A stretch of 64,000 nucleotides of DNA from Poseidonia sp. (GTDB lineage Archaea; Thermoplasmatota; Poseidoniia; Poseidoniales; Poseidoniaceae): assembly GCA_030741355.1 (NCBI GenBank), contig JASLVM010000004.1, positions 1,889-65,888 of the forward strand. Reading direction: 5' to 3'. Position numbers and translations under genes: made by a program. Every line of letters starts with the position of its first letter. Position 1 is the first letter of the stretch. The notes below the pieces were generated by a model that made no database searches, was not told the DNA's origin, and saw only the letters and a list, made by a program, of their open reading frames with translations. Positions 11,158 through 63,274 of this stretch are shown piece after piece.

Positions 11158-12414
11158 TCACGAAGCGCTGAACGCAGCAACCGCAGCGTGAATTTCCTCA
11201 TCCAACATGTTCCTCTTTTGGCTCTTGGCCACCTCAAAGAGATGGGCGACGAGGTCATCCTGAGCTTCAATGCCCTGTTGCTCAAGCCACCAAATGATGT
11301 TTGAACGACCGGACATATGGCCGATGCGGATGACTTGCTTCAGGCCGAAATCGCCAGCAGGCACACCGGAGTAAACACGGTCTGCAAGCCAATCGTCACC
11401 TTTTCTCATGGCCTTGATAACAGCGGAAGCGTGAACGCCAGTGCCGGTTTCAAAAGCATCCTCACCAAAGACGGGGTAGTTTCTGGGAAGTGGAACTTCG
11501 ATGTATTCGTTGGCTTTCTGCATGTACGTGTCGAGCAAGGTCAAGTCGTTGTCGATGACACCCATGAGTTTGAGATTCACCAGCGTTTGGTCAAGCGGTG
11601 CATTGCCTGCACGCTCACCCACACCCAGGGCTGTTCCGTGAATGACATCCGCACCTGCTTCAACAGCAGCGATGTTGTTGGCCACACCTAGGCCACGGTC
11701 TTGGTGACCGTGCCAATTGACCTCAATATCTCGGCGCTGATATCCAGCGTCTTTGATGACCTCCTCGTCAATGAAAGAAAGGAGTTTTTTCACGCCGTTT
11801 GGTGTTACGTGGCCGCACGTATCGCAAACGCAGAGGCGGCGGACACCGAGTTCCATGGCTCGCTGATAGATCATTTTCACATCTTCTGGGTTCGAACGCG
11901 TGGTGTCCTCGGTTACAAACATGACCGGCACGTCGTTTTCCACGGCATAGGAAACCGCCTTTTCCATGGTGCTGATGAGCTTCTCCATGGTCCAGCCTTC
12001 GGTGTATTGGCGAATTGGACTCGTGCCAAGGAAAGCCGAGGCTTGAATCTCCATCTCGTGCTTGGCCTGCATCTCCACCAGGGGTTCAATGTCGCCCATC
12101 AAGGTTCGAACAGCCGCACCTGGCCTGATAGCGTAGTCGTTCTCGCTGATGTGCGTGAGCATGGCGTCGATGTGAGACCGGTGGAAAGGACCTGCCCCCG
12201 GCAATCCCAAGTCAACCTTCTGGAGCCCGAGTTGTTCCATGTAACTCAGCAGTTCGATTTTTTGTTCAATCGTCGGGTTGCGTGCACTCGGGCTTTGCAA
12301 TCCGTCTCGCAACGTTTCATCGTCAAACCAAACGCCATGCGGGTGGTTGGATGCATCCCGCTTGAAGTCGTACTCAACCGTGTTCCAATCGTAAATCAAA
12401 GAACGCTCGTCCAT
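11158..12414 (-). CDS. HMGL-like 2-isopropylmalate/homocitrate/citramalate synthase family enzyme
   Basis: DETLRDGLQSP, CDTCGH and HGHQDRGLGVANNIAAVEAGA blocks are present. No long LeuA regulatory domain is seen. I prefer ATG at 12412-12414 with an upstream GGTGA. The alternative is GTG at 12534, overlapping the gyrA stop. Confidence 0.8.
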   Translation of the reverse strand: MDERSLIYDWNTVEYDFKRDASNHPHGVWFDDETLRDGLQSPSARNPTIEQKIELLSYMEQLGLQKVDLGLPGAGPFHRSHIDAMLTHISENDYAIRPGAAVRTLMGDIEPLVEMQAKHEMEIQASAFLGTSPIRQYTEGWTMEKLISTMEKAVSYAVENDVPVMFVTEDTTRSNPEDVKMIYQRAMELGVRRLCVCDTCGHVTPNGVKKLLSFIDEEVIKDAGYQRRDIEVNWHGHQDRGLGVANNIAAVEAGADVIHGTALGVGERAGNAPLDQTLVNLKLMGVIDNDLTLLDTYMQKANEYIEVPLPRNYPVFGEDAFETGTGVHASAVIKAMRKGDDWLADRVYSGVPAGDFGLKQVIRIGHMSGRSNIIWWLEQQGIEAQDDLVAHLFEVAKSQKRNMLDEEIHAAVAAFSAS

Positions 12415-12530: not shown

Positions 12531-17229
<4,699 letters not shown>

Positions 17230-36821: not shown

Positions 36822-37931
36822 ATGGACCTTGACCGCCACGACTTTGAATTGGACGAGTTAATGGAGCGAATCCGCTCCAACGACAATCGTTTGATTGCGC
36901 TTCAAGTTCCTGAGGGACTCAAGATGCAAGCGCTTGAAATGATGGACACCATTGAAACCGAAACCAGCGCCCAAGTTGTCCTTGCAGCGGACCCTTGCTA
37001 CGGCGCCTGCGACCTTGTCCACGATAAAATGCAGTTGATGGGCGTTGAATTGGTGGCTCACATGGGTCATTCTCAAATGAACATCGATTCCGGCATGCCC
37101 ACCCAATTCATCAACGTCACTTATGATGGCGACCCGGAACTCAAACCTGTGCTTCCTTGGCTTGAACAGCACCGGGCAATGGCACAGCAACGCTTGGACC
37201 AACAAGGTGAAGCCACAAAGTTGTCCGAAGAAGAGGCACAAGAGAAGTTCATGGATGCGGTGGGCCGCATGGCACCGTTGACCGACACGAAACTCGGTCT
37301 TGTCGGTTCCATTCAACACCTTCATCTCCTTCCAGACTTCCACGACCGCCTCGAACAAGCAGGCTTTGATGTGACCGTGCCCGTTGGTGGAGCTCGACTC
37401 TCCTTCCCGGGCCAGGTACTCGGATGCAATTACTCAGGCGACGACCCTTCCATTGGCCACTACCTCTTCCTTGGGAGTGGTGATTTCCACCCCATCGGTT
37501 TGGTCCTGCACACCGGCAAGCCCCTTGCCATGCTGGATCCTTACACTGGCGAAGCAGAAGAGATGTCCTTACAGCGCATTGAACGCATCCTCCGTCAGCG
37601 TTTTGGCCTCATCATGAGCGTTCAAGACGCCAACTCCTTTGGTATCCTCATCGGCGAAAAACCCGGACAAATGCGACGTACGCTCGCCCTCCGCATGAAG
37701 CGCATGCTGGCCAAGCACGGGAAGAAGGGTTACTTGCTGGCTCTCGAACATGTCGGACCCGAACTCATTGACTTCTATCCCGTTGATGCCTTTGTCAACA
37801 CCGCTTGCCCTCGTATCGCCATCGATGACGCCGTCAAGTACCGCAAGCCGCTCATCACCCCGTTTGAGCTTGAAGTCGCTCTGGGCGAAAAGAAATGGGA
37901 AACCGGATACCAATTCGATGAGATTCCCTGA
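36822..37931 (+). CDS. dph2: 2-(3-amino-3-carboxypropyl)histidine synthase (diphthamide synthesis Dph2)
   Basis: IALQVPEGLK, ADPCYGACD and NTACPRIA cysteine-containing blocks are typical of archaeal Dph2. Confidence 0.8.
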   Translation: MDLDRHDFELDELMERIRSNDNRLIALQVPEGLKMQALEMMDTIETETSAQVVLAADPCYGACDLVHDKMQLMGVELVAHMGHSQMNIDSGMPTQFINVTYDGDPELKPVLPWLEQHRAMAQQRLDQQGEATKLSEEEAQEKFMDAVGRMAPLTDTKLGLVGSIQHLHLLPDFHDRLEQAGFDVTVPVGGARLSFPGQVLGCNYSGDDPSIGHYLFLGSGDFHPIGLVLHTGKPLAMLDPYTGEAEEMSLQRIERILRQRFGLIMSVQDANSFGILIGEKPGQMRRTLALRMKRMLAKHGKKGYLLALEHVGPELIDFYPVDAFVNTACPRIAIDDAVKYRKPLITPFELEVALGEKKWETGYQFDEIP

Positions 37932-38020
37932 ACCGACCCCTTTCGACTCCAAGAAGCGGGTTTGGAACCTCGGTTTGAGACCACATCTTTTAGAACGGTT
38001 GACATCAGCATTCCCTTGAT

Positions 38021-39226
38021 ATGGCAGACTATCTTGACCGAATCGGCGCTGGGCTCATCATCGCCCACCCAGAGCGGTTGGATTTTGACTTCGTCCCTGA
38101 GGAACTGGTGGGAAGAGAGGAGATTCAGCGTGAATTGGCCTCTAAATTTTCCAACGTAGCGACCCCAGAGGGCGCCGCTAGAGCCGTCATCACCGGACCC
38201 GTTGGAAGTGGCAAAACGGTGCTCGCCAAGACCTTCTGCCGAGACCTTCAACGCCATCTCTCCGGAAAACGAGAGCTCAAGGTGGCTCACATCAATTGTC
38301 GAAACGCTTCGACCAGCATGCGAGTAGCACAACGCATCCTGCACCAGTTTGACCCGGGACATCCGGACCGAGGACTTTCTCTTGGCGAAATGCTCCTCAG
38401 TCTGCGAAAAATGCTCCGTCGAACATCCACGCACCTGATCGTGGTGTTGGACGAGGTCGATCACATGCTGCGTCGTTCGGGCGACGAATTGCTGTATCAA
38501 CTCCTCCGAATTGACGAAGACCAAGACGGTACCGGCACCTTGTCGTTGATGCTCATCAGCCAAGAGCAGGTCCTTGATGTGCTTGAGACAGCCGTGCTTT
38601 CGAAGTTTGGTCAATCCAATCATTTGCGCATTCAACCTTACACTGTTGATGGATTGGAAGCCATCGCTCGCCAACGGGCGGAATTGGCCCTGGTCCCAGG
38701 AACCTGGAGCGACGCCACCGTACGATTGCTGGCTGAGCGGGCGGCGGGCAGCGGCGATGCACGAAGAGTCATCGAATATCTCAGCAGCGCCGCAGAGCGT
38801 TGTGAGTTCCGACAAGACGGTCATACCGAGCAGGTCATCACGGTTGAAGACATTCACGCCATGAGCGATACGGTGGCCGTCGACACGCAAACACGGCTCG
38901 AAGTGGTGGACGACCTTCCGGCTCAAGGCATGCTGGTCTTGTTGGCCATGTGCCGACGACTTCGAACCGAGGAAAGCATGACCATGGGCGACGTCGAGCG
39001 TCTTTACGCCGTGGTGTGCGAGGAATACGACCAAAAACCAAAGAGCCACACAACGCTTTGGAAATACGCCAAACAAATCGAACGCGAGGGCGTCATCAGC
39101 ACCCGCGTGGCCACTGTACCCGGCGGACGTGGCCGCACCACCCATCTGAGCATGCCGCACTTCCTCCCCGCAGACATCGCAAGCCGGCTTGAATTGCTCA
39201 TACCGAAGCGACTTCGCCGGCGTTGA
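38021..39226 (+). CDS. cdc6: Orc1/Cdc6 replication initiator (canonical)
   Basis: Walker A ITGPVGSGKT and Walker B LIVVLDEVD are present. The C-terminal winged helix carries GGRGRTTHLSM. Confidence 0.9.
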   Translation: MADYLDRIGAGLIIAHPERLDFDFVPEELVGREEIQRELASKFSNVATPEGAARAVITGPVGSGKTVLAKTFCRDLQRHLSGKRELKVAHINCRNASTSMRVAQRILHQFDPGHPDRGLSLGEMLLSLRKMLRRTSTHLIVVLDEVDHMLRRSGDELLYQLLRIDEDQDGTGTLSLMLISQEQVLDVLETAVLSKFGQSNHLRIQPYTVDGLEAIARQRAELALVPGTWSDATVRLLAERAAGSGDARRVIEYLSSAAERCEFRQDGHTEQVITVEDIHAMSDTVAVDTQTRLEVVDDLPAQGMLVLLAMCRRLRTEESMTMGDVERLYAVVCEEYDQKPKSHTTLWKYAKQIEREGVISTRVATVPGGRGRTTHLSMPHFLPADIASRLELLIPKRLRRR

Positions 39227-39293
39227 ACCCGGCAAGCGAGACGATGGGGCTAAATACGGGTCTTGAGTCGGAGAAATCCCGAGAGGTGCTCCT

Positions 39294-39770
39294 ATGGCAG
39301 AATTCATCGCAGTGGTCAACGATACAGACCCCAAGAACGGCGGAAAGTCGTACGCCCTGAAAATCACTGGAAACAACCACGCTCAAATGCTCGGAAAGCG
39401 CATTGGCGATGTGGTGGACGGTCTCTTCGTTGGCGAAGGCGACAAGACCCTCTCCGGCTACAAACTCGAAATCACGGGTGGCTCGGACAAAACCGGCACC
39501 CCCATGCGTCGAGATCTTGAAGGCGGCAACCGCCAATCGATCCTTGTGACTCAATCCACCGGATACAAGGGTGAAGTGGTTGTTCACAAGAAGAAAGGCG
39601 GCGACAAGAAGCGTTTCCGATACAAGCCTGATGGCCTTCGCAAGCGACGAAACTTCCGTGGAAACACGGTGACGCAAGACACCCGTCAAATCAATCTCCG
39701 AGTGGTTGAGTCTGGAAAGAAGCCGCTCGCCACCATCCTCGGCGCCGAGGGCGAGGAAGCATCGGAGTGA
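39294..39770 (+). CDS. rps6e: 30S ribosomal protein S6e
   Basis: KITGGSDKTGTPMRRDL matches the S6e signature. ATG is preceded by GAGAGGTG. Confidence 0.85.
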   Translation: MAEFIAVVNDTDPKNGGKSYALKITGNNHAQMLGKRIGDVVDGLFVGEGDKTLSGYKLEITGGSDKTGTPMRRDLEGGNRQSILVTQSTGYKGEVVVHKKKGGDKKRFRYKPDGLRKRRNFRGNTVTQDTRQINLRVVESGKKPLATILGAEGEEASE

Positions 39771-41440: not shown

Positions 41441-41740
41441 TTATGGAAGCGTGAATAGAACGTCATCTCCGTGCCCGTCAAGCCATCCAATTTTCACACC
41501 TGCATCAATCCAAGCATGGGCATAGTTGATCGCTCCAAAGGCCCGAACAAGGTCCCCCGTGGTCAAGAAATGCTGGGCGTCTGAAGCATAATCATCTGCC
41601 ATCCTCATCATCGTCGCCAGATGCATGCCCTCTGGGCTTTCAGCCTCCACCAGGGGCGTCGCCTTGGCTCTGGCCCGCCGAGTGATATCGAGGTACGACG
41701 CTACGCGTTCAACCGTAAGGGTTTGGAGACCTTCACTCAT
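41441..41740 (-). CDS. DUF357-like small helical protein
   Basis: 99 aa. DYASDAQHFLTTGDLVRAFGAINYAHAWIDAG resembles the DUF357 core. The start overlaps the upstream stop (ATGA at 41737-41740). Confidence 0.5.
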   Translation of the reverse strand: MSEGLQTLTVERVASYLDITRRARAKATPLVEAESPEGMHLATMMRMADDYASDAQHFLTTGDLVRAFGAINYAHAWIDAGVKIGWLDGHGDDVLFTLP

Positions 41741-42786
41741 TCACCGCCCTCCTTCTGTCGCTTAAGGAGCCGGCGTGCGTCTTCTGCCCGACCGAGCGCC
41801 TCGTAGAGTTCAATGGCCAAGGACAACTTGCCCATATCCTCTGCTTCCTGAGCGCGGAGGAACATTTGACGGCGTTCCTCCCAATTACGAGCCATGGCCG
41901 CATCGGCCGCTGCTTTGTAGCGGCCCTCCCGTTCGGCATCAGCAAGGTGTGGTGCTGTCCATCGACGAACCAATCCGTCTCGAGTAGCGGTAGCCATGGC
42001 ATCCGGCGTGCACAAGACGAGTAAATCACCCAGGTTCATGCCCTGTGTGAGCGGCGTTTCACCGTCCTCTTCGTTCGATTCTGTCATGGAAAGGAGATGC
42101 CCTTCAATCCCCAGCACCCACCATCCGTCTCCGGTTCGTACCGCACTCATCGGCTCAACGCTGTCGTATTCCAACCGGTTGAGGGCGTCCCACCCAAACG
42201 GATGCGGAATACCCTCCCAAAGACCTCCATCGCTGCTCTGCAGGAGTAAACGGCCATCTGCGAGGGAAGAGCACCAACTCCAAGGACGCTCTTCTAGCCT
42301 GCGTTTGCGATCCTCTCCCGTCAGTCGGCCACACCAGAGATGCCCTTCAGGGTCTTGCCAAAGAAGGTGTTCTCGGTCCAGCCATCCAATGAGTCGTCGG
42401 ACCGGCCCGCTTTCCACGCGGCGAATACCTCGGCCGTGTTGTGAGAAGAGATGGATTTCGCCACGACGCCCTGCGAGGGCCCATCCGCCTCCGGGTCGTG
42501 GCCGGAGGTCACTAAATCCTCCAGGTGCACTGCGGCCCTCGTTCACCATCGAACCATCACCGGTGTTCATCAAAAAGAAACCATGAGCAGCGAGGATGCC
42601 CACCGTGCCTTGCGATGCACGGGCTGCATGGACTTTGAACGGAACATCAACAGCCCATCGCGACGAGCCATCTGCCTCGAGAAGTTCCAACCGCAAACCT
42701 GAGCTGACCAACAGGCCACCCTCAACGGCTGCGAGGGCGGCGATACGACCCTGTGCCTGCCATGACCATGCCACGTTCCATGTCAT
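41737..42786 (-). CDS. Beta-propeller-like (PQQ/WD-like repeat) protein with helical Ala/Glu/Arg-rich tail
   Basis: About seven repeats of a DG-x-x-W/L strand motif are present (ADGSSRWAV, GDGSMV, GGGWALAG, DPEGHLWCG, SDGGLWEG, GDGWWVLG, RDGLVRRW). The start overlaps the upstream stop (ATGA at 42783-42786). Confidence 0.45.
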   Translation of the reverse strand: MTWNVAWSWQAQGRIAALAAVEGGLLVSSGLRLELLEADGSSRWAVDVPFKVHAARASQGTVGILAAHGFFLMNTGDGSMVNEGRSAPGGFSDLRPRPGGGWALAGRRGEIHLFSQHGRGIRRVESGPVRRLIGWLDREHLLWQDPEGHLWCGRLTGEDRKRRLEERPWSWCSSLADGRLLLQSSDGGLWEGIPHPFGWDALNRLEYDSVEPMSAVRTGDGWWVLGIEGHLLSMTESNEEDGETPLTQGMNLGDLLVLCTPDAMATATRDGLVRRWTAPHLADAEREGRYKAAADAAMARNWEERRQMFLRAQEAEDMGKLSLAIELYEALGRAEDARRLLKRQKEGGE

Positions 42787-44696
42787 TGGACACCACCTCC
42801 CTCAAGGGCGCCCCAGGCAATCAATTGGGCCCGTGCTGCTTGAGTAAGCGAAAACTTGCGTGAGCGACCTACCTGTCGGACTTGGAGAATTCCATGTTTC
42901 AGTAATCGGTTGCTGATTTGTGAAAGCCTGGCTCTTTTGATGCGAAGGTGTTGAAGCATGGAGGAGTCAGAAGGAGAATAATCGCGCTCTTGAGCGATGG
43001 CGACCACGTAGCCCTCAGAAGGGTTCAGGGAACCAAGCACCAACGGATTGAGGCCGTGAATCTCTTTGGGCCCCTGACGCTCTTGAAAGCGCTCTTCAAA
43101 GAAAGCAACCAGAGCCTCGTGGGATGATGCATGAACGGACGGCTGCATCAAGGCCATCATGGCTTGAAGGGTATCAAGAACGGTGGCTTCCATCGCAGGA
43201 GCCTTGTATGAAACATCTTGAGCATCATCTGGCTCTTCAAATTCAACATGATGGTCATCGACGATGCCGCCCTCCACCATTCCGACTTCATCGTGGAGCA
43301 TAACGGCGGATTCTTCTTCGGGAACAGGATCGGCAGGCGATGGAGAAAGTAAATCCCCATCCACCCAGTACTGATTGCCGTCAAAGGAGGCCACCAACTC
43401 ATGTTGGCCTTCATCATCCTTGTTTTTTCGTTCCTCTGCACCTCGTACGGTGTCCTTACCACGTTGCGCAATCCCCCGAAACATTCCCGAGAGTTGGGTG
43501 GTGGATGAAGCAGCGACGGCGTCTGCATCGATGATTGGAGGATTGAACGGGCTTTCTTGGAGTGGGTCGTCTGAATTTTTTTCTTCGTCCAACCGGCCGA
43601 TGTCCAAATCAAAATTGAAGTCAGGGAAGGGGACATCGGGTTCTTCAGGAGCCTCCTCGTGAGTCCTGAGCGCTGGCCGTTCCGTCCAAGGCATTGAAGC
43701 GTCGATAACATCGGAAAGCGGCTCATCTTGTGCTGGCAGCTCCTCCAAGGACTCCAGACCGGCATGGCCGAATCCTTGTTCTTCTGGCTGTTCTTGCTCC
43801 AACTTCGCACCTTCATCCATCAGTTGGTGAAGCGAATCAGGCTCATCTCTTGGGAAGATCTTCGCCGAGGTATCAACGTACTGTACGGGCAAGCCCTCCG
43901 GGTTTTGCATTCGTATACCGTCGACTGTATCCCTCAGAACGGTGATGACTTGGGAGGGGAAACCGTCGCAATCTTCGAGGATTTCGGCTGCATCATGCAT
44001 CGAAAAATCACTGTCCATCACGCCCACGGAGGCCAAACGTTGCCGCACCAAGGAAAGAACATCATTTGCACTGAACGGCATCAAACGTTGGACTTCAAAC
44101 CCTTCAATCACGGTTTGAGGAAGATGATGACGTTCTTTGACATCGCAAACCAAGACCAAGAGCGCATTCAGGCGCTCCAATGACGAATGGGCGTCTCGTA
44201 AAGCGACCTCCAACACAGAGAGGTCACTGGCTGGTACGTCGATGACGATCATGGGTAGCTTGTTTGGATGACTGTACATCTCGTTCACAAGACCGTTGAC
44301 CAGTTCTGTTCGGTTTTTGGGTGGCTCTCCACCGATCATCTGCCGATAGCACATGCTCAGAAGGGCCGTGGCTGGTGCCTGGGCGGGCAGATGGTCAATG
44401 GTGGCTGAAGCGCCAGCATAGGGCATTAAACAGCGTGCAAGCGAGGTGCGACCCGATCCCAGAGGCCCGAGCAACATGACTTTACGAGCCGTGCCAAGTT
44501 GGAGATAGGTCTTCAGTCGAGTGAAGACTTCTGCCCTCCCGATGAGTTTTCCTGACTCTCCCGATTCAAGTGGACGGATAGAAAACGGATTCACATTCAA
44601 GGACGGTAAGCCGTAAGCATGCGTTTCTCGAACCATGGCCGTCAAACGATGTCCTGGTATATCATGTTTCAGCGGAACCGAGGCTTGGAGAGACAT
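42783..44696 (-). CDS. Divergent Orc1/Cdc6-like AAA+ protein with degenerate Walker motifs, acidic linker and C-terminal winged helix
   Basis: Walker A position reads GPLGSGRTS and Walker B position reads MIVIDVPASD. The Orc1-like lid is RLMPFSANDVLSLVRQRL, and the wHTH is RLSQISNRLLKHGILQVRQVGRSRKFSL. I prefer ATG at 44694-44696; the track start at 44753 is a TTG inside the TTAAC array. Confidence 0.6.
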   Translation of the reverse strand: MSLQASVPLKHDIPGHRLTAMVRETHAYGLPSLNVNPFSIRPLESGESGKLIGRAEVFTRLKTYLQLGTARKVMLLGPLGSGRTSLARCLMPYAGASATIDHLPAQAPATALLSMCYRQMIGGEPPKNRTELVNGLVNEMYSHPNKLPMIVIDVPASDLSVLEVALRDAHSSLERLNALLVLVCDVKERHHLPQTVIEGFEVQRLMPFSANDVLSLVRQRLASVGVMDSDFSMHDAAEILEDCDGFPSQVITVLRDTVDGIRMQNPEGLPVQYVDTSAKIFPRDEPDSLHQLMDEGAKLEQEQPEEQGFGHAGLESLEELPAQDEPLSDVIDASMPWTERPALRTHEEAPEEPDVPFPDFNFDLDIGRLDEEKNSDDPLQESPFNPPIIDADAVAASSTTQLSGMFRGIAQRGKDTVRGAEERKNKDDEGQHELVASFDGNQYWVDGDLLSPSPADPVPEEESAVMLHDEVGMVEGGIVDDHHVEFEEPDDAQDVSYKAPAMEATVLDTLQAMMALMQPSVHASSHEALVAFFEERFQERQGPKEIHGLNPLVLGSLNPSEGYVVAIAQERDYSPSDSSMLQHLRIKRARLSQISNRLLKHGILQVRQVGRSRKFSLTQAARAQLIAWGALEGGGVQ

Positions 44697-44742
44697 GTTA
44701 CGAGGCGTTAACCCGTCAGCCGCACGGAAGATTTCAGTGGAA

Positions 44743-44798
44743 TTAACGGCCAATTAACAGTAAATTAACGCGTTAACTGATGCGTTAATCCCGTTAAC
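44743..44798. repeat. Array of six (A/G)TTAA(C/T) boxes at 8-12 bp spacing in a divergent intergenic spacer
   Basis: TTAAC/TTAAT boxes begin at 44743, 44754, 44765, 44773, 44785 and 44794. A further GTTAAC lies at 44707-44712. All were read directly from the sequence. Confidence 0.85.
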
Positions 44799-44872
44799 GC
44801 CCACCAACCAACGACACCCGCACAGCGATTGATTCAAGGAACGCAGCCCCCACCCTCCACACGGGAAGCACC

Positions 44873-58108: not shown

Positions 58109-58726
58109 TCACTTGTTCTTGAATCGCTTCAGACGGAAAGTTTCCTCGCGTTCCATTTCTTCAAGACGAAGTTGAATGAAGACCTTGGCTTCCTCAAGTT
58201 CTGGGATGACCTTGAACTCGAGGGCATTGACACGACGCTTGGTAGCTTCAATTTCAGCCAAAAGGCGCTTCAACGTGGCTTCCATTTCGGATGCCGTTAC
58301 GATTTTTTCAATCAATTCGCTGAAGGAATCGCTGGCTTCATCGATGTAAGGCGATGAGCCGATGAAACCAATCCCTCGCTCGGCAAAGGTGGACTTGAGG
58401 TTGCTTCCGCTGACGCTTGGAACAACCACACCCATGATGTTGCGGCGTTCAACCTCAACTTCTGGGTGGGCGGAGTTTGCGATGGCCGCAGCACGAACAG
58501 CCAAACCACCTTCGATGGCGTTGGCCAAGTCAATACGAGTCTTGGCAAGACGATAGGCGTCGGTCAGATCTCGCTTCGCTTCAATCATCTCCGAAAGAAG
58601 GGTACGGAACTCGTGGAAGAGACCGTCTCGCTTCATTTTCAGCAACTTGTAACCGTTCTTGGTCTGCTTGATTCGAGCCTTGAGTTTGATGAGTTCGCTG
58701 CGGGTTGGTTTGATGTCCAATGCCAT
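58109..58726 (-). CDS. atpD: A-type ATP synthase subunit D
   Basis: MALDIKPTRSELIKLKARIKQTKNGYKLLKMKRDGL is the typical V/A-ATPase D N-terminus. It is the last gene of the operon. Confidence 0.9.
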   Translation of the reverse strand: MALDIKPTRSELIKLKARIKQTKNGYKLLKMKRDGLFHEFRTLLSEMIEAKRDLTDAYRLAKTRIDLANAIEGGLAVRAAAIANSAHPEVEVERRNIMGVVVPSVSGSNLKSTFAERGIGFIGSSPYIDEASDSFSELIEKIVTASEMEATLKRLLAEIEATKRRVNALEFKVIPELEEAKVFIQLRLEEMEREETFRLKRFKNK

Positions 58727-58761
58727 GCTTTCTCACCTCCGTCATTCGAATTTTGGAACGC

Positions 58762-60147
58762 TCACTCGCGGTTGTCTGGGTGGTACTTCTCAATCCACTT
58801 TTGGTCAAGACGGACGAGGTACTTCGTGTCGATGGAAGACATCAGCGTCCAGCACAAGTCAAGGGTTTCGTTGATCGAGCGGTCTTCGTCTCGAGATTGT
58901 CGAAGGAACTGGTCTTCGAACACACCGGAGAAGTCCAAGAGTTGCTTATCACGCTCGTTGAGGGCATCTTCACCAACAATGGCGACCAATCCACGAAGTT
59001 CTCGACCCTGAGCGTACGCAGCGTACATCTGGTCGGAAACCGATTTGTGGTCCTCACGGGTGGTTTCGGCACCAATACAGGAACCCATCAGTCGAGACAA
59101 TGAAGGCAAGACGTTGATGGGCGGATAGATACCCTGCTGATGGAGTTCACGACTGATAACAATCTGACCTTCAGTGATGTATCCGGAAAGGTCGGGAATC
59201 GGGTGCGTGATGTCATCACCAGGCATGGTGAGAATGGGGAATTGGGTGATGGACCCCTTCTTGCCCTTCACGATACCAGCACGCTCGTAGAGCATGGCCA
59301 AATCCGTGTACATGTATCCGGGGTAGCCACGTCGACCAGGCACTTCTTCACGAGCAGCACCAATTTGTCGCAGTGCATCACAGTAGTTCGTCATGTCCGT
59401 GTAGATGACCAGAACGTGGTAGTCCTTCTCAAAGGCGAGGTATTCAGCCGCGGTCAAAGCAAGACGAGGCGTAATGATTCGCTCAACAGCTGGGTCGTCG
59501 GCAAGGTTGACGAACAACACAGCGTTTTCGAGAGCACCGGTTCGCTCCAAGTCAGAACGGAAGAAGTTGTATTCTTCAGCGGTGATACCCATGGCGCAGA
59601 ACACCACAATGAACTCCTCATCGGAATCCTTGAGCTTGGCTTGGCGAGCAATCTGCAAGGCGATGTCGTTGTGGGGCAGACCCGATGCTGAAAAGATCGG
59701 GAGTTTCTGTCCACGAACAAGCGTCGTACAACAGTCAATGGCAGAGATACCCGTCTGAATGAAGTCGTGGGGTGATTGTCGGCTGTAGGGGTTGATGGCC
59801 GCACCGATGATGTCTGCTTTTTCGTCAGCCACGATTTCTGGGCCACCATCACGAGGACGGCCGGCACCATCGAGAATTCGTCCAACCAAATCGGTGCTCA
59901 CGGGGAGTTTGAAGACATCGCCCATGAAGGTGACACCGGTTTCTCGGTTGATTTTAGCCGTGCCTTCAAACACTTGAACGATGACAAGGTCGTCCGAGGT
60001 GTCAAGCACTTGGCCGTTCTTGATGTCGCCGTTGGCGAGTCGGAGGGTAACGATTTCACCAAACGCAACGGGCTCGGTTTTGTTCAAAAAGACCAAGGGG
60101 CCCTTCACGTCGGTAATGGTTCGGTATTCTTTTCCAGTCATCTTCAT
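58762..60147 (-). CDS. atpB: A-type ATP synthase subunit B
   Basis: 461 aa. The V/A-type B subunit pattern holds along the full length ([37 protein letters not shown]). Confidence 0.95.
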
Positions 60148-60154
60148 CCTCTCC

Positions 60155-61894
60155 TCAGTTGGCCTCCACGGCGTTGGCGATTTGTTCGTTCATTTCCTTG
60201 ACCATCTCTTCGATGCGGTCAATGTAGCCCTTTTCGAATCGGCCACGCATCAAGTCTGAGCGGGCGGGCACGTTCACAACATCGTTGAGCAGAGCACCGT
60301 CTGCCATGGCACCCTTTGCTGCTTCTTGGAAGGAAAGGATGGCCTTGGCCATGTGGTACTGCAGGTGAATGTCGCAGTATGCATCGACATCGTGGAACCC
60401 GTTTTGCTGCAAGAAGAACTCACGAATCATACGGGCGACTTCCAAGGTCAACTGCTGGTCAACAGGCAGGGCATCGGAACCGACCAACTGGACGATTTCT
60501 TGCAACTCAGCCTCAATTTGGAGCAATCCGCTGATTTGGGTACGGATTTCGGGGAAATCCTGTGCGATGTTGTCTCGGAACCACTGGTCGAGACTCTGCG
60601 GGTAGAGCGAATAGGAGTTCAGCCAGTTGATGGCGGGGAAGTGGCGTTGTCGAGCCAGACCGGCGTCAAGTCCCCAGAACACCTTCACGATACGAAGGGT
60701 ACCTTGGGACACCGGTTCGGAGATGTCTCCACCAGGTGGCGACACAGCACCGATGACCGTGACCGAGCCGTCGTCGCCGTTGAGGGTTTCAACACGACCT
60801 GCTCGTTCGTAGAACTCGGCAATTCGAGAAGAAAGGTAAGCAGGGTAGCCTTCCTCACCGGGCATCTCTTCCAAACGGGACGAAATCTCACGCATGGCTT
60901 CAGCCCAACGGGAGGTTGAATCGGCCATGAGGGCCACGTCGTAGCCCATGTCTCGGAAGTACTCGGCGATGGTGATTCCGGTGTACACGGAAGCCTCACG
61001 GGCAGCCACAGGCATGTTGGAGGTGTTGGCGATCATGACGGTTCGGTTCATGAGCGGCTTACCGGTGTTTGGGTCAATCAAGTGAGGGAACTCGTCCAAC
61101 ACTTCGGTCATCTCGTTTCCACGTTCACCGCAGCCGATGTAAACAACAAGCTGTGCGTCAGAATACTTGGCTAGAGACTGCTGAGTGACGGTCTTTCCTG
61201 AACCGAACGGACCAGGAATACCTGCAGCACCGCCCTTGGCGAGCGGGAACAGGAAGTCCAGAATGCGCATACCGGTCACCAGTGGGGTGTCGGGTGCGTA
61301 CTTCTGGGTGTAAGGACGAGGGGAACGGACGGGCCACTTCTGCATCATCTGCAACTCTGTGCCGTCTTCGAACACACAAACGGTTTGTGTGACGTTGAAA
61401 TCGCCTGACTCGATGGACTTGACCTTGCCGGACTTGCCGGGTGGGACCATGATCTTGTGAACGATGGTTTCGGTCTCTTGGACGTGGCCAATCACTTGGC
61501 CGCTGACCACTTCATCGCCCTTGGCCACTTGAGGTTCAAACGTCCAGGTCTTCTCCATGTCGAAAGCGTCGGCATCAACACCACGAGTGATGAAAACACC
61601 CATGACTTCCTCAAGGGTAGCAAGAGGTCGCTGAATACCGTCGTAAATCTGGGTCAGGAGGCCAGGCCCAAGGGAAACGGACAACGTCTCTTCGGTGTTC
61701 AACACGGGCTCGCCAGGTCGAATACCCGAGGTGTCTTCGTACACCTGGATAACAGCCTTGTCGCCGTGCAGTTCAATCACTTCGCCCATCAAACCTTCAT
61801 GGCCAACACGCACAACGTCATACATTGCTGCGTTCATGCCCGTCGCGGTTACGACAGGTCCCGAAATTCGGTAAATCACTCCTTCATTGCTCAT
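60155..61894 (-). CDS. atpA: A-type ATP synthase catalytic subunit A
   Basis: 579 aa. Walker [10 protein letters not shown] and [10 protein letters not shown] are present. There is no intein insertion. Confidence 0.96.
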
Positions 61895-61924
61895 TTTTTC
61901 TTCCTCCTGTTTTTGGTTGGAACT

Positions 61925-62224
61925 TCACTTCCACAAATCGACTCCTATGGCCTTACGAATGGTATCTCGCAAGGTGGTGTCTTCCTCCGTTCCGATGCCG
62001 AGCACGGTGGGAGAAACGGACGCCGACAATTGATCTCTCAATCGGTCGGGCAACGTGGTCATCACGGCGGAGTCGACCACCACGATACCAACGCTTTTGC
62101 TGTTGAGGAGCGAACGAAGTGCGGCGTGCAATTCGTCATCGCTCTCGGGATTATGAAGATTGGACACTCCAGCAAGCTGGAAGCCAAGGGTAAAGGCGGG
62201 TGAACCAACGACTGCGATATCCAT
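61925..62224 (-). CDS. atpF: A-type ATP synthase subunit F
   Basis: 99 aa. MDIAVVGSPAFTLGFQLAGV is the typical subunit F start. It sits between C and A. Confidence 0.85.
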   Translation of the reverse strand: MDIAVVGSPAFTLGFQLAGVSNLHNPESDDELHAALRSLLNSKSVGIVVVDSAVMTTLPDRLRDQLSASVSPTVLGIGTEEDTTLRDTIRKAIGVDLWK

Positions 62225-62233
62225 GATTTCACC

Positions 62234-63274
62234 TCAGAGTACGTGCGCCTCAAGCACTTCGGCAGACAGACCGGCAAGCCGGCCACGCACGATCAATCGC
62301 AAGTCGGAAACTTCCTGAACCTTCATGGCGATGTAGTGGATGATGGGAAGGGCCGATACAGGATGGAGGTAGCTCATCCGTTGCATCATGGCGTATTCCC
62401 TTGCTTTCATCCACGTCACGACGGGATCTAGACTGCGGGTAGCATCGGCTTCTTCAAGCACGGACTCAAACGCAGCGTTGTCAAACCGGTCGCCTGCTCG
62501 AAGCAAATCAAGCATTGCATCCTTGCCACCGGTGGCGATGGCTGAGAACGCTCGTTTTGGAACGAGGCGCCCACCGGGAATCAACAACGAGACCAATTGT
62601 TCGTTGGAGATTCCAACAGCACTGGCTTCCAGGATGTTGACGATGTTTTTGTGGTCGATTTCTGCGGCGAACAATCGAGACAAGAAGCGAGCAGGTGCTC
62701 CCTTGGATTGGAGCAAGGCTCGTTGCGATGCGGCGTAGTAATGGCGGTCAAGAGCGTCTTCATAGTCAGCCAGCGTTCCGTTTTCAGGGACTTTGGCAAG
62801 GGCTGAGCCGAAGGACTTTCGTCGCATCAAGGCAGCAGCGGATTTCATGTCGTCGCAACTTTCAACCACTTTGAGCCACGGCGTGTTGACGTCGTTGATC
62901 TCTGGAAGGATGCTGTTACCAACTTCCTCAACAGAAACCTCGTTATGGATGGCACGGAACACCGCTTTGGCGTTCTGGTACTCAAACCGGGACGTGTAAA
63001 TCTCAATGAGCGGGCGAATGGTTCTGTTGGCCATGTTGACCATCTCGGTCAGTTCACCTTCGAGATTGTGCGTCAGTGCCGCTTCAACCAAGTCGCCACC
63101 GGAGAGTTTTCCAGCGTACAAGTCGATTTCTGTTCGGTACCCGATATCACCCACTGCCACCGTCAACTGGTCGACGGATTGGTTGATGAGTTGGCGAAGG
63201 CGAGCTCGGTCAGCCAACTTCTGTCGTCGTGCCTTGGCACGAGAGACGACATAAGGGGTGTTTCCGAGCATCAT
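62234..63274 (-). CDS. atpC: A-type ATP synthase subunit C
   Basis: About 346 aa and helical. The position between E and F matches the conserved operon order. The start was trimmed to ATG 63272-63274; the track start is TTG. Confidence 0.8.
   Translation of the reverse strand: MMLGNTPYVVSRAKARRQKLADRARLRQLINQSVDQLTVAVGDIGYRTEIDLYAGKLSGGDLVEAALTHNLEGELTEMVNMANRTIRPLIEIYTSRFEYQNAKAVFRAIHNEVSVEEVGNSILPEINDVNTPWLKVVESCDDMKSAAALMRRKSFGSALAKVPENGTLADYEDALDRHYYAASQRALLQSKGAPARFLSRLFAAEIDHKNIVNILEASAVGISNEQLVSLLIPGGRLVPKRAFSAIATGGKDAMLDLLRAGDRFDNAAFESVLEEADATRSLDPVVTWMKAREYAMMQRMSYLHPVSALPIIHYIAMKVQEVSDLRLIVRGRLAGLSAEVLEAHVL

What the first reader, a model, noticed from the sequence alone, without database searches (positions are those of the whole stretch)
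41441..44696. ATGA-coupled three-gene module: degenerate Orc1/Cdc6-like AAA+/wHTH protein, beta-propeller protein and DUF357 protein
Counted from ATG 44696, the first product is 637 aa and has Orc1/Cdc6 architecture. It has an AAA+ core, a lid segment VLVCDVKERHHLPQTVIEGFEVQRLMPFSANDVLSLVRQRL, and a C-terminal winged helix RLSQISNRLLKHGILQVRQVGRSRKFSLTQ. Its Walker A reads GPLGSGRTS, with an Arg codon CGC at 44448-44450 where the invariant Lys belongs. The Walker B position reads MIVIDVPASD with no Asp-Glu pair, so ATP hydrolysis is probably lost. A roughly 250-aa strongly acidic linker separates the AAA+ part from the wHTH. The canonical Orc1/Cdc6 only 3.5 kb away (38021-39226; GPVGSGKT, VVLDEVD) has no such linker. 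The stop of the first gene overlaps the start of a 349-aa protein (ATGA at 42783-42786). That protein has about seven DG-x-x-W/L strand repeats (propeller-like) and a helical tail. Its stop in turn overlaps the start of a DUF357-like 99-aa protein (ATGA at 41737-41740). Two consecutive translational couplings suggest stoichiometric co-production, that is, a complex. I know of no described role for an initiator-derived pseudo-ATPase coupled to a propeller protein in archaea. Possible roles are an origin or chromatin regulator, or a transcription factor acting on the TTAAC array immediately upstream.
Basis: partly seen in the sequence, partly recalled or inferred. Interest (0 to 1): 0.7.

Follow-up and report, generated by a model that had tools for sequence, protein, structure and literature searches.

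The report
ORC-like DNA binder with propeller partner
Marine Group II archaea all carry a tightly coupled three-gene operon whose first protein is a much-altered relative of the replication-origin proteins and very probably binds a strictly conserved array of eight TAACG repeats in front of its own gene; what the system does is unknown, so it is a well-defined target for experiment, not a solved case.

Summary
Three minus-strand genes are joined by ATGA overlaps, the P-loop reads GPLGSGRTS with Arg codon CGC at 44448-44450, and no Asp-Glu Walker B exists. One correction: the real start is almost certainly ATG 44636 (617 aa, leaderless, TATA-like box at -33..-20).

Protein A has a confident AAA+ core and lid, a 270-aa acidic disordered linker and an ArsR/MarR-type winged helix. 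Profile and fold searches put it in the ORC/Cdc6-RFC part of AAA+ (hhalign to the neighbouring Orc1: 94.5%, E 8e-8). It fails every curated Orc1/Cdc6 model. Its closest relatives are about 390-aa archaeal "ORC-CDC6-like" ATPases with normal Walker motifs and no linker.

B is a beta-propeller with a helical tail. C is DUF357, a near-universal archaeal housekeeping protein.

Gene order, couplings and neighbourhood (SMC-ScpAB-HMGR | A-B-C | PIN-aIF2gamma-S6e-Orc1) are conserved in about 75 Poseidoniales species. The repeat array, three TAACG, a TAACGCGTTA dyad, three CGTTA, then two promoter-proximal TAAC, sits 134-135 nt from the start codon in 65 of 72 loci.

Best reading: A binds this array, autoregulates the operon and nucleates a complex with B. 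An origin or centromere-like role is not excluded.

The parts
42783..44636 (-). It is a derived ORC/Cdc6-like AAA+ protein with an acidic linker and a C-terminal winged helix.
   Evidence: ORF. The start is inferred from homologue alignments and the conserved promoter box. More than 130 homologues, all in Poseidoniales.
43902..44549 (-). AAA+ core plus three-helix lid of A (residues 30-245 in 617-aa numbering). Two helices lie between beta2 and beta3, as in the initiator-specific motif.
   Evidence: AlphaFold2 pLDDT is about 80-92 over this part. Foldseek matches Cdc6, ORC, RFC, Hda and RuvB at 5e-8 to 1e-6. hhalign to the Orc1 alignment: 94.5%, E 8e-8. AAA_16 hits in 46 of 49 members and AAA_22 in 22 of 49.
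44442..44468 (-). Non-canonical P-loop GPLGSGRTS, with the Arg codon CGC at 44448-44450 where the Walker A Lys normally sits.
   Evidence: Arg in all 54 close loci and also in the 25 divergent ones. 43 Arg and 6 Lys among 49 family representatives, with the Gly, Ser and Thr positions invariant.
44223..44252 (-). Walker B region MIVIDVPASD. The Asp is invariant and is followed by a hydrophobic residue and Pro, never by Glu.
   Evidence: D133: 49 of 49; position +1 is V, Y, F, L, A or H; position +2 is Pro in 40 of 49.
43077..43886 (-). Acidic, predicted disordered linker of 270 aa. It carries conserved short motifs: IDAS-x-PW, DEPLQ-x-PF, G-x-F-x-G-L-x-x-R-x-[KR], and a near-invariant Trp.
   Evidence: pLDDT is mostly below 60. 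65 Asp+Glu against 17 Lys+Arg. Motif conservation. Linker length varies from about 250 to about 650 aa across the family.
42807..43076 (-). C-terminal winged helix-turn-helix of A. Its family signature is SPSD...[KG]R-x-R[LM]SQ[IL]-x-N-x-L...G[IL]L...GR-x-R.
   Evidence: pLDDT 86-95. A profile against PDB gives BigR/ArsR at 2.4e-5. MarR_2 hits in 10 of 22 members and weak Cdc6_C hits in 5 of 22. Invariant residues.
41737..42786 (-). Gene B (349 aa): a cytoplasmic beta-propeller of about seven blades with a four-helix C-terminal tail. Its start overlaps the stop of A (ATGA).
   Evidence: AlphaFold2 pLDDT 88.3. Foldseek matches BamB, WD40 and Ycf48 propellers, E 1.6e-13 to 1e-10. No Pfam or NCBIfam hit. 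The A/B overlap is 4 nt in 31 loci and 1 nt in 36 loci.
41441..41740 (-). Gene C (99 aa): a DUF357 protein whose start overlaps the stop of B (ATGA).
   Evidence: PF04010 at 1.1e-19. PDB 2OO2 (AF_1782) at 4e-8. The B/C overlap is 4 nt in 58 loci and 1 nt in 3 loci. Belongs to arCOG01224, which is near-universal in archaea (PMC6393860).
44744..44798 (.). Distal repeat array. Read on the gene strand it is TAACG-N4-TAACG-N7-TAACGCGTTA-N7-GTTA-N7-GTTA: three half-sites, a dyad (44766-44775), then three inverted half-sites, spaced 9-12 nt apart.
   Evidence: It is the only such cluster in the window and in each related locus. The dyad centre lies 134-135 nt from the A start in 65 of 72 loci.
44697..44712 (.). 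Promoter-proximal pair of half-sites (gene strand GTTAAC-N5-GTAAC) at about -62 to -77 from the corrected start.
   Evidence: consensus atTAAC-N6-TAACg, with more than 90% conservation of the TAAC cores.
44656..44669 (-). Candidate BRE/TATA box AAACATGATATACC, 20-33 nt upstream of ATG 44636. This placement implies a leaderless transcript.
   Evidence: Conserved as T.AAAcAT.AtATAC in 67 unique upstream sequences. The promoter function is inferred from position only.

Best explanation
Gene A encodes a site-specific DNA-binding protein. It descends from an archaeal ORC/Cdc6-like AAA+ winged-helix ATPase.

Shown by computation:
- A has an AAA+ core and lid, a disordered acidic linker and an ArsR/MarR-type winged helix.
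- Its nearest relatives are about 390-aa 'ORC-CDC6-like' proteins with normal Walker motifs and no linker.
- Its gene is always preceded, at a fixed distance, by an array of TAACG half-sites spaced about one helical turn apart.

Inferred:
- The invariant recognition helix of the winged helix reads the TAACG half-sites.
- Several A molecules line up on one face of the DNA. They are held together by the AAA+ modules, which still bind nucleotide (P-loop glycines, Ser/Thr and the Walker B Asp are invariant) but hydrolyse it slowly or not at all (Arg or Lys in Walker A, no catalytic Glu).
- Binding at the distal array (-108 to -163) and the proximal pair (-62 to -77) controls the leaderless A-B-C promoter, that is, autoregulation.
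- The long acidic linker carries conserved short motifs that dock the co-translated beta-propeller protein B. The array thus becomes the assembly point of an A-B nucleoprotein complex.
- DUF357 (C) is co-expressed, but it may only share the transcript.

What the complex does beyond autoregulation is unknown.
For: Homology and architecture:
- AlphaFold2 model.
- Foldseek top hits are Cdc6, ORC, RFC and archaeal Orc1.
- hhalign of A against Orc1: 94.5%, E 8e-8.
- hhalign of A against P0422: AAA+ part 97.2%, E 3e-11; winged helix 83%, E 9e-6.
- P0422 passes the Pfam cut-offs of AAA_22, ATPase_2 and ORC-CDC6-like.
- The winged helix matches ArsR/BigR at 2.4e-5.

Motifs: P-loop and Walker B statistics.

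Array and gene linkage:
- The same architecture occurs in about 70 Poseidoniaceae loci in which A identity falls to 32%.
- The spacing is fixed at 134-135 nt from the A start, while the distance to the divergent HMG-CoA reductase gene varies from 69 to 148 nt.
- 2+2 or 3+2 versions of the array are still present upstream of the most divergent members.
- The array stays with A when a peroxiredoxin gene is inserted between A and HMGR.
- The array is unique in the window and in every locus.

Operon: A-B-C order and overlapping stop/start codons are conserved.

Parallel case: the canonical relative P0422 also has phased 11-bp repeats upstream of its gene.

Precedent: Orc1-2 is an ORC-family transcription regulator (PMC6061795).
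Against: - No binding data exist. Another factor could read the array.
- The A-B interaction is inferred only from translational coupling and linker motifs. No multimer prediction was possible.
- A 617-aa protein with a dedicated propeller partner, conserved across an order, seems more than an autoregulator needs.
- Only 64 kb plus syntenic loci were searched, so further genomic TAACG arrays (a regulon or other sites) cannot be excluded.
- Arg in Walker A usually weakens nucleotide binding, so the 'binds but does not hydrolyse' step is conjecture.
Confidence: 0.5

Rival explanations
1. The TAACG array is a chromosomal cis-acting site, not an operator. It would be part of the replication origin, or a centromere-like or SMC-loading site. 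A, with B, would be its dedicated ORC-derived recognition complex, and autoregulation would be a side effect.
For: - A derives from ORC/Cdc6-like proteins.
- Two sets of half-sites face each other, like origin recognition boxes around an origin.
- In divergent lineages an AT-rich spacer of 16-24 nt separates the two sets.
- The locus lies 5.5 kb from orc1 and 1.4 kb from the scpB-scpA-smc operon, in a block conserved order-wide.
- orc1 itself has only an intergenic region of about 85 nt, with a promoter-like box and no repeats.
- No canonical ORB consensus is enriched anywhere in the window.
- The canonical relative P0422 sits next to a 1.1-kb AT-rich region full of phased repeats that looks like an origin.
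Against: - In most species the two sets meet at TAACGCGTTA, with no AT-rich unwinding element. AT content peaks at 65%.
- The whole intergenic region is only about 240 bp and holds two promoters.
- The exact phasing with the A start codon points to promoter control.
- The GC-skew minimum in the window is near 50-52 kb, not 44.7 kb, and is weak.
- The ATPase motifs that initiators need are altered.
Confidence: 0.15
2. A and B together form a split STAND-type signalling NTPase of the MalT/LuxR-LAL/AfsR kind. B would be the propeller/TPR sensor, and A the NTPase plus HTH output that regulates transcription in response to a ligand or protein signal. Given the conserved divergent neighbour, this could include HMG-CoA reductase.
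For: - Pfam hits of family members are to AAA_16 (46 of 49), nSTAND1 (14 of 49), ATPase_2 and NACHT.
- STAND proteins typically combine an NTPase with WD40 or TPR sensors and an HTH.
- B is a propeller with a TPR-like helical tail.
- HMGR is the divergent neighbour in 71 of 71 loci with enough DNA.
Against: - The model shows a plain AAA+ three-helix lid followed by disorder. It lacks the helical and winged-helix arm that follows STAND NTPase domains.
- The top 50 Foldseek hits are AAA+ initiators, clamp loaders, RuvB and the like, with no STAND protein among them.
- The array is phased with A, not with HMGR.
- The array stays with A when another gene is inserted between A and HMGR.
Confidence: 0.15
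3. The array is the operator of an unrelated transcription factor that controls the divergent HMGR and A-B-C promoters. A acts elsewhere or does not bind DNA specifically, and the trio is just a conserved transcript of functionally unrelated genes.
For: - DUF357 is a near-universal archaeal gene linked elsewhere to DUF555 and a cytidylyltransferase (PMC6393860). This shows that unrelated genes do share this operon.
- The array lies between two divergent promoters.
- No binding was tested.
Against: - The array co-occurs with A across the whole family, including members with 20-25% identity, and it follows A when the neighbourhood changes.
- The recognition helix is the most conserved part of A, matching the invariant half-site.
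- A-B coupling is kept in 67 of 68 loci.
Confidence: 0.15

Closest known systems
Archaeal Orc1/Cdc6 initiators (TIGR02928; for example the neighbour at 38021-39226 and PDB 2QBY)
   Same: - An AAA+ core with two helices between beta2 and beta3, a helical lid and a C-terminal winged helix.
- Sequence-pattern parallels across the whole AAA+ module.
- hhalign 94.5%, E 8e-8.
- Cdc6 and ORC are among the top fold matches.
- The gene lies next to an array of oppositely oriented short repeats.
   Different: - No hit to any curated Orc1/Cdc6 model.
- Arg, rarely Lys, in Walker A, and no Walker B Glu.
- GDAR in the lid is replaced by GG-x-P.
- A disordered acidic linker of 250-650 aa separates the lid from the winged helix.
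- The winged helix scores with ArsR/MarR, not Cdc6_C.
- The repeats are TAACG, not ORB-like, and have no clear unwinding element.
Archaeal 'ORC-CDC6-like' / ATPase_2 / AAA_22 proteins of about 390 aa (P0420, P0422; PF24389, PF01637; some annotated ExeA-like)
   Same: - These are the closest detectable relatives: hhalign 97.2%, E 3e-11 for the AAA+ part and 83%, E 9e-6 for the winged helix.
- They share an N-terminal NPF motif, a GG-F-P lid motif and a C-terminal winged helix.
- Phased short repeats lie upstream of the gene.
   Different: - They have canonical GPTGSGKTT and LLLDEAHE motifs.
- They have no linker.
- No propeller or DUF357 gene follows them.
- Their upstream region is 1.1 kb, very AT-rich and origin-like.
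Orc1-2 of Saccharolobus islandicus (the DNA-damage-response regulator)
   Same: An ORC-family AAA+ winged-helix protein that acts as a sequence-specific transcription regulator and not as an initiator (PMC6061795, PMC9738581).
   Different: Orc1-2 is a bona fide Orc1/Cdc6 family member. It has canonical length and no linker, and it is not reported with a propeller partner or an array of this kind. Homology to A is only at superfamily level.
STAND-type regulators with AAA_16 NTPase, TPR or WD40 sensor and HTH (MalT, LuxR-LAL, AfsR)
   Same: The parts list summed over A and B: a P-loop NTPase hitting AAA_16/nSTAND profiles, a beta-propeller with TPR-like helices, and an HTH output.
   Different: - The parts are split over two proteins.
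- The fold matches are AAA+ initiators and clamp loaders, not STAND.
- No STAND arm domain is present.
- The NTPase motifs are altered.

Membership tests
Orc1/Cdc6 replication initiators (TIGR02928 / NF0016xx; Pfam Cdc6_lid + Cdc6_C) | Scores above the curated cut-off of the family models | tested here: not met
   A has no NCBIfam or Pfam Orc1/Cdc6 hit. The neighbouring Orc1 scores 212 bits on TIGR02928 and hits Cdc6_lid and Cdc6_C. None of 49 family members hits Cdc6_lid.
Orc1/Cdc6 replication initiators | Canonical Walker A (GxxGxGK[ST]) and Walker B (hhhhDE) | tested here: not met
   The window protein reads GPLGSGRTS and VIDVP. Family-wide, Walker A has 43 Arg and 6 Lys, and the Walker B Asp is never followed by an acidic residue.
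Orc1/Cdc6 replication initiators | AAA+ fold of the initiator clade, with an extra helix between beta2 and beta3 (initiator-specific motif) and a helical lid | tested here: inconclusive
   The model has two helices (108-120 and 129-140 in 637-aa numbering) between beta2 and beta3, and a three-helix lid. Foldseek ranks Cdc6 and ORC first, but RFC, Hda and RuvB score equally at about 1e-7. No control profile of another AAA+ clade was available for hhalign.
Orc1/Cdc6 replication initiators | A Cdc6-type winged helix directly after the lid | tested here: not met
   A 270-aa linker intervenes. hhalign of the winged helix against the Orc1 alignment gives 0.7% probability. Cdc6_C is hit weakly by 5 of 22 members, whereas ArsR/MarR profiles score better.
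Orc1/Cdc6 replication initiators | Binds origin recognition boxes and loads MCM at an origin | not testable with these tools
   No ORB consensus is enriched in the window. Origin position is unknown.
AAA+ superfamily (P-loop alpha/beta core plus lid) | A five-stranded core with P-loop, Walker B Asp and a C-terminal helical lid; significant profile and fold matches to AAA+ proteins | tested here: met
   Model. 523 PDB chains at E<=1e-3, the top ones all AAA+. A profile against PDB gives RuvB, RFC and Cdc6. AAA_16 hits in 46 of 49 members.
Archaeal ORC-CDC6-like / ATPase_2 group (PF24389, PF01637) | Scores above the Pfam gathering cut-off | tested here: not met
   A scores 11 bits on PF24389 against a cut-off of 27, and only 2-3 of 49 members reach E<0.01. 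The relative P0422 passes both cut-offs and is clearly homologous to A. A is therefore a divergent sister, not a recognised member.
STAND NTPases | NTPase followed by a helical arm and winged-helix arm; fold matches to APAF-1, MalT or NLR proteins | tested here: not met
   nSTAND1 hits are weak, in 14 of 49 members. No STAND structure appears among the top 50 fold matches, and the lid is followed by disorder.
ArsR/MarR-type winged helix-turn-helix DNA-binding domains | Profile match over the recognition helix and wing | tested here: met
   BigR at 2.4e-5, with ArsR, HlyU and CadC at 3e-4 to 1e-3. MarR_2 hits in 10 of 22 members. Model pLDDT exceeds 86.
Beta-propeller proteins (WD40 / PQQ-BamB-like), for protein B | Propeller fold; membership of a sequence family | tested here: inconclusive
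   The fold is met: Foldseek probability 1.0, E 1.6e-13 to BamB, and WD40 TM-scores up to 0.63-0.73. No Pfam or NCBIfam repeat family is hit. The blade count of about seven is read from secondary structure only.
DUF357 (PF04010, arCOG01224), for protein C | Scores above the Pfam gathering cut-off | tested here: met
   70.6 bits against 29.4. PDB 2OO2 at 4e-8.

The most novel reading that the evidence does not exclude
The TAACG array with the A-B complex is a single-copy chromosomal landmark of Marine Group II archaea. An ORC-derived, non-hydrolysing recognition complex would mark the replication origin, or act as a centromere-like or SMC-loading site, next to orc1 and smc-scpAB. That would make it an archaeal counterpart of ParB-parS or of ORC accessory factors such as WD40 ORC-associated proteins.
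Probability: 0.12. Interest if true: 0.85.

Novelty: new variant of a known kind. Interest (0 to 1): 0.6.

Why it matters
Poseidoniales (Marine Group II) are among the most abundant archaea in the surface ocean and are uncultured. Almost nothing is known about how they organise, replicate or regulate their chromosome.

This locus offers a clean, order-wide conserved protein-DNA pair. One partner is a derived ORC-like protein with an unusual Arg P-loop. The other is a precisely phased eight-site array. They come with a dedicated beta-propeller partner, all inside the orc1/smc neighbourhood.

The pair can be tested directly in vitro with recombinant protein and a 120-bp DNA fragment. It shows how an initiator-type AAA+ winged-helix protein can be remodelled through a linker insertion and loss of the catalytic residues. 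If the array proves to be an origin or a segregation site, it would identify a new kind of chromosomal landmark in Euryarchaeota.

Tried and rejected
- **Single-sequence and profile searches of A against PDB sequences** gave only P-loop-level matches. The best was a RuvB Lys-to-Arg mutant, which is uninformative for clade assignment.
- **An exhaustive HMMER search of 1.8 billion representatives** found 189 hits. Those inspected were family members or fragments of them, with no bridge to a named family.
- **hhalign of the winged helix against the Orc1 winged helix** aligned the equivalent helix and wing, but with no statistical support.
- **A canonical ORB consensus scan** gave 39 matches against 40 expected and no cluster. 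A mini-ORB-like string at 44730-44742 is not conserved in other loci, so it was rejected as chance.
- **A repeat search over 35-53 kb** found no other convincing repeat family.
- **A metagenome-wide scan for the array pattern** returned 80 loci. 27 of them carry A and/or HMGR. The rest come from unrelated contigs, and I estimate that a database of this size would give about that many chance matches for 18 specified bases. The scan therefore cannot show whether a genome holds second sites.
- **PADLOC** gave no defence-system match, and the housekeeping synteny also argues against a defence island.
- **The GC-skew profile of the window** was too short and too gene-strand dependent to place an origin.
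- **A control profile from another AAA+ clade** was wanted for hhalign. The window and the loci contain no RFC, MCM or Cdc48 gene, so the ORC-versus-RFC question stays open.

Full report
**1. The observation**

The three minus-strand ORFs exist as described. The junctions are ATGA overlaps at 42783-42786 and 41737-41740. The codon at 44448-44450 is CGC, giving GPLGSGRTS. The Walker B position reads MIVIDVPASD. The segment between the AAA+ part and the C-terminal domain has 65 acidic against 17 basic residues in 270 aa. The neighbouring gene at 38021-39226 is a textbook Orc1/Cdc6: TIGR02928 at 212 bits, plus AAA_22, Cdc6_lid and Cdc6_C hits. The window is from a Poseidoniaceae (Marine Group II) archaeon. 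All homologues carry Poseidoniales or 'Euryarchaeota archaeon' labels.

**2. Corrected start and promoter**

The amino-acid 'conservation' upstream of it (KHDIPG, LTxxN) is really DNA conservation. About 70 loci share the box T.AAAcAT.AtATAC 20-33 nt before this ATG (window 44656-44669), and a TAAC-N6-TAAC pair further up. I therefore take ATG 44634-44636 as the start, giving 617 aa. The box position suggests an archaeal TATA/BRE with a leaderless mRNA; this is inferred from position only.

**3. Protein A**

*Model.* AlphaFold2 with 67 homologues gives confident structure for residues about 50-265 and 540-630 (637-aa numbering) and low confidence in between. The first block is a P-loop alpha/beta core with five strands, two helices between beta2 and beta3, and a three-helix lid. 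The last block is a winged helix-turn-helix.

*Fold and family searches.*
- Foldseek against the PDB returns yeast and human Cdc6, Drosophila and human ORC subunits and Sulfolobus Cdc6/Orc1 (2QBY). RFC subunits, Hda, RuvB, MgsA, TnsC and MuB also appear, all at 5e-8 to 1e-6.
- Pfam gives only a sub-threshold AAA_16 hit for the window protein.
- Over 49 diverse members, AAA_16 is hit by 46, AAA_22 by 22 and nSTAND1 by 14. Cdc6_lid and PF00004 are hit by none.
- A profile of the AAA+ part aligns with a profile of Poseidoniales Orc1 over 212 columns that span core and lid (probability 94.5%, E 8e-8). No other AAA+ clade was available as a control.
- The winged helix matches ArsR-family structures (BigR 2.4e-5) and MarR_2. 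It matches Cdc6_C only weakly.

*Conclusion.* A belongs to the ORC/Cdc6-clamp-loader part of AAA+ and has ORC-like architecture. It is not a member of the Orc1/Cdc6 family.

**4. Nearest relatives**

A profile search of 5.8 billion proteins with the AAA+ part found, beyond the family itself, a few archaeal proteins of about 390 aa (P0420 at E 7e-7, P0422 at 1e-5). They share several features with A:
- the N-terminal NPF motif;
- a GG-F-P lid motif;
- a C-terminal winged helix.

They also differ. They have GPTGSGKTT and LLLDEAHE motifs and no linker.

hhalign gives 97.2% (E 3e-11) for the AAA+ part and 83% (E 9e-6) for the winged helix. P0422 aligns with Orc1 at 71% (E 4e-5). P0422 passes the Pfam cut-offs of AAA_22, ATPase_2 and ORC-CDC6-like.

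A is therefore best described as a derived offshoot of this ORC-CDC6-like group. It gained a 250-650-aa acidic linker and lost the catalytic residues.

**5. Are the ATPase changes conserved?**

In all Poseidoniaceae loci the P-loop is G-x-x-G-S-G-R-[TS]-S, even at 32% identity. Among 49 representatives of the whole family, 43 have Arg and 6 have Lys. G57, G60, G62, S65 and the Walker B Asp are invariant. The residue after that Asp is never acidic and is usually followed by Pro.

Such strict conservation of the nucleotide-binding scaffold argues against a dead site. Loss of the catalytic Glu, and the Arg-for-Lys change, argue for slow or absent hydrolysis. This step is inference.

**6. Proteins B and C**

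*Protein B.* B has no family hit. It is predicted with pLDDT 88 as a propeller of about seven blades closed by the N-terminal strand, followed by four helices. Foldseek matches BamB, WD40 and Ycf48 propellers. B is more conserved than A, at 64-94% identity in loci where A falls to 32%.

*Protein C.* C is DUF357 (PDB 2OO2). DUF357 is arCOG01224. It is present in 463 of 524 archaeal genomes and elsewhere is 'tightly linked' to DUF555 and a cytidylyltransferase (PMC6393860). It is also one of 76 archaeal single-copy markers (PMC12680538). Its place in this operon may therefore be a lineage-specific transcript fusion and not evidence of a shared complex.

**7. Conservation of the module**

- A scan of one genome per GTDB species gave 154 relatives, of which 76 loci were kept. 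Every locus with enough DNA has A-B-C in this order.
- The A/B junction is a 4-nt overlap in 31 loci and a 1-nt overlap in 36. The B/C junction is a 4-nt overlap in 58 loci and a 1-nt overlap in 3.
- The wider block SMC-ScpA-ScpB-HMGR | A-B-C | PIN-aIF2gamma-S6e-Orc1-Dph2 is kept even for very divergent members.

**8. The upstream array**

On the gene strand the consensus of 67 distinct upstream regions is:

tTAACG-N3-tTAACGc-N6-TAACGCGTTAat-N3-gcGTTAAt-N3-gcGTTAat, about 26 nt, atTAAC-N6-TAACg, about 22 nt, TATA-like box, about 20 nt, ATG.

In the window the distal array is 44744-44798, with its dyad at 44766-44775. The proximal pair is 44697-44712. Half-sites are 9-12 nt apart, that is, on one face of the helix.

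- *Fixed phasing with A.* The dyad centre lies 134 or 135 nt from the start codon in 65 of 72 loci. Its distance to the divergent HMG-CoA reductase start ranges from 69 to 148 nt.
- *Uniqueness.* The cluster is the only one in the 64-kb window and in each of the roughly 18-kb loci.
- *Divergent members.* These keep 2+2 or 3+2 versions, sometimes with an AT-rich spacer.
- *Array follows A.* In a lineage where a peroxiredoxin gene separates A from HMGR, the array stays with A.
- *Match to the protein.* The most conserved part of A is the recognition helix and wing ([KG]R-x-R-[LM]-S-Q...G-R-x-R).

Together these make A the obvious candidate reader of the array, but binding was not tested.

**9. 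Mechanism proposed**

A binds the half-sites through its winged helix and oligomerises along the array through its nucleotide-bound AAA+ modules. It thereby controls its own leaderless promoter. Its acidic linker carries conserved short motifs (IDAS-PW, DEPLQ-x-PF, G-x-F-x-G-L-x-x-R, a near-invariant Trp) that recruit the co-translated propeller B.

*Rivals.*
- An origin or centromere-like landmark is favoured by ORC ancestry, by the facing repeat sets and by the orc1/smc neighbourhood. It is also favoured by the lack of any ORB-type element near orc1 and by the origin-like region beside P0422.
- It is disfavoured by the absence of an unwinding element and by the tight promoter phasing.
- A split STAND-type sensor-regulator is the second rival.
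- An unrelated factor reading the array is the third.

**10. Novelty and verdict**

The family is annotated only as 'hypothetical' or 'ATP-binding protein'. A search for Poseidoniales together with Orc1 returned no paper, and a search for marine group II, origin of replication and cdc6 returned three papers, none read as describing this family.

ORC-family proteins that act as regulators are known (Orc1-2, PMC6061795), so the kind is not new. The following features are new:
- the Arg P-loop;
- the giant acidic linker;
- the dedicated propeller partner;
- the phased eight-site array.

I rate the finding as a new variant of a known kind, with interest 0.6.

Noticed in passing
L205:4980-5960 (also L204 and L206), upstream of the gene for P0422: A 1.1-kb, very AT-rich non-coding region lies upstream of the canonical ORC-CDC6-like relative in a low-GC archaeon that also encodes histone, RPA and RadA. 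It holds many GTGAAC repeats at an 11-bp period, in direct runs that flip at TTCACGTGAA palindromes and flank an AT-rich core. It looks like a replication origin and mirrors the TAACG array architecture.
   Followed up: partly
L003 (NZEQ01000054.1, 'Verrucomicrobiales bacterium ARS100'): This contig is 97-99% identical at protein level to the window's archaeal A-B-C genes and shares their synteny. It is almost certainly a Poseidoniaceae contig mis-binned into a bacterial MAG.
   Followed up: no
window 44825-44843: The element GCGATTGATTCAAGGAACG lies 30-48 nt upstream of the HMG-CoA reductase start (44873). It is conserved across Poseidoniaceae loci as cgttccttgaatcaatcgc on the other strand. 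It is probably the hmgA promoter, and its core TGATTCA resembles the TGATATA of the A promoter.
   Followed up: partly
window 37930-38020: orc1 has an upstream intergenic region of only about 85 nt, with a conserved box CACATCTTTTAGAACGGTTGACA and no repeats. No ORB-type consensus is enriched anywhere in the 64 kb. The replication origin of this organism is therefore not where it usually lies in archaea, or it uses unfamiliar elements.
   Followed up: partly
L082:7214-7678 and 11040-12076; L083: In one divergent lineage, where A is 1012 aa, a peroxiredoxin (AhpC/Redoxin) gene is inserted between HMGR and A. The B gene appears broken in one contig but intact in a second contig with the same A, so an assembly frameshift is likely.
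   Followed up: partly
window 37775-39376 (-): A 533-aa ORF runs antisense to orc1. It is a spurious long antisense frame and misleads naive longest-ORF gene calling.
   Followed up: no
L115:1621-1670, L161:288-345, L135:167-197 (metagenome contigs): Unrelated organisms (soil and freshwater samples) carry other mirror-symmetric arrays of 10-12-bp repeats that meet at the same palindrome, TAACGCGTTA. An example is TATAACTCTAGG x3 facing its inverse. These are possibly iterons or operators of other winged-helix proteins.
   Followed up: no
window 12531-17181 and 58109-63274: From N-terminal sequence alone, gyrase A and B genes appear to lie at 12.5-17.2 kb and a V/A-type ATPase operon at 58-63 kb. 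This fits a core chromosomal region and not a mobile element.
   Followed up: no
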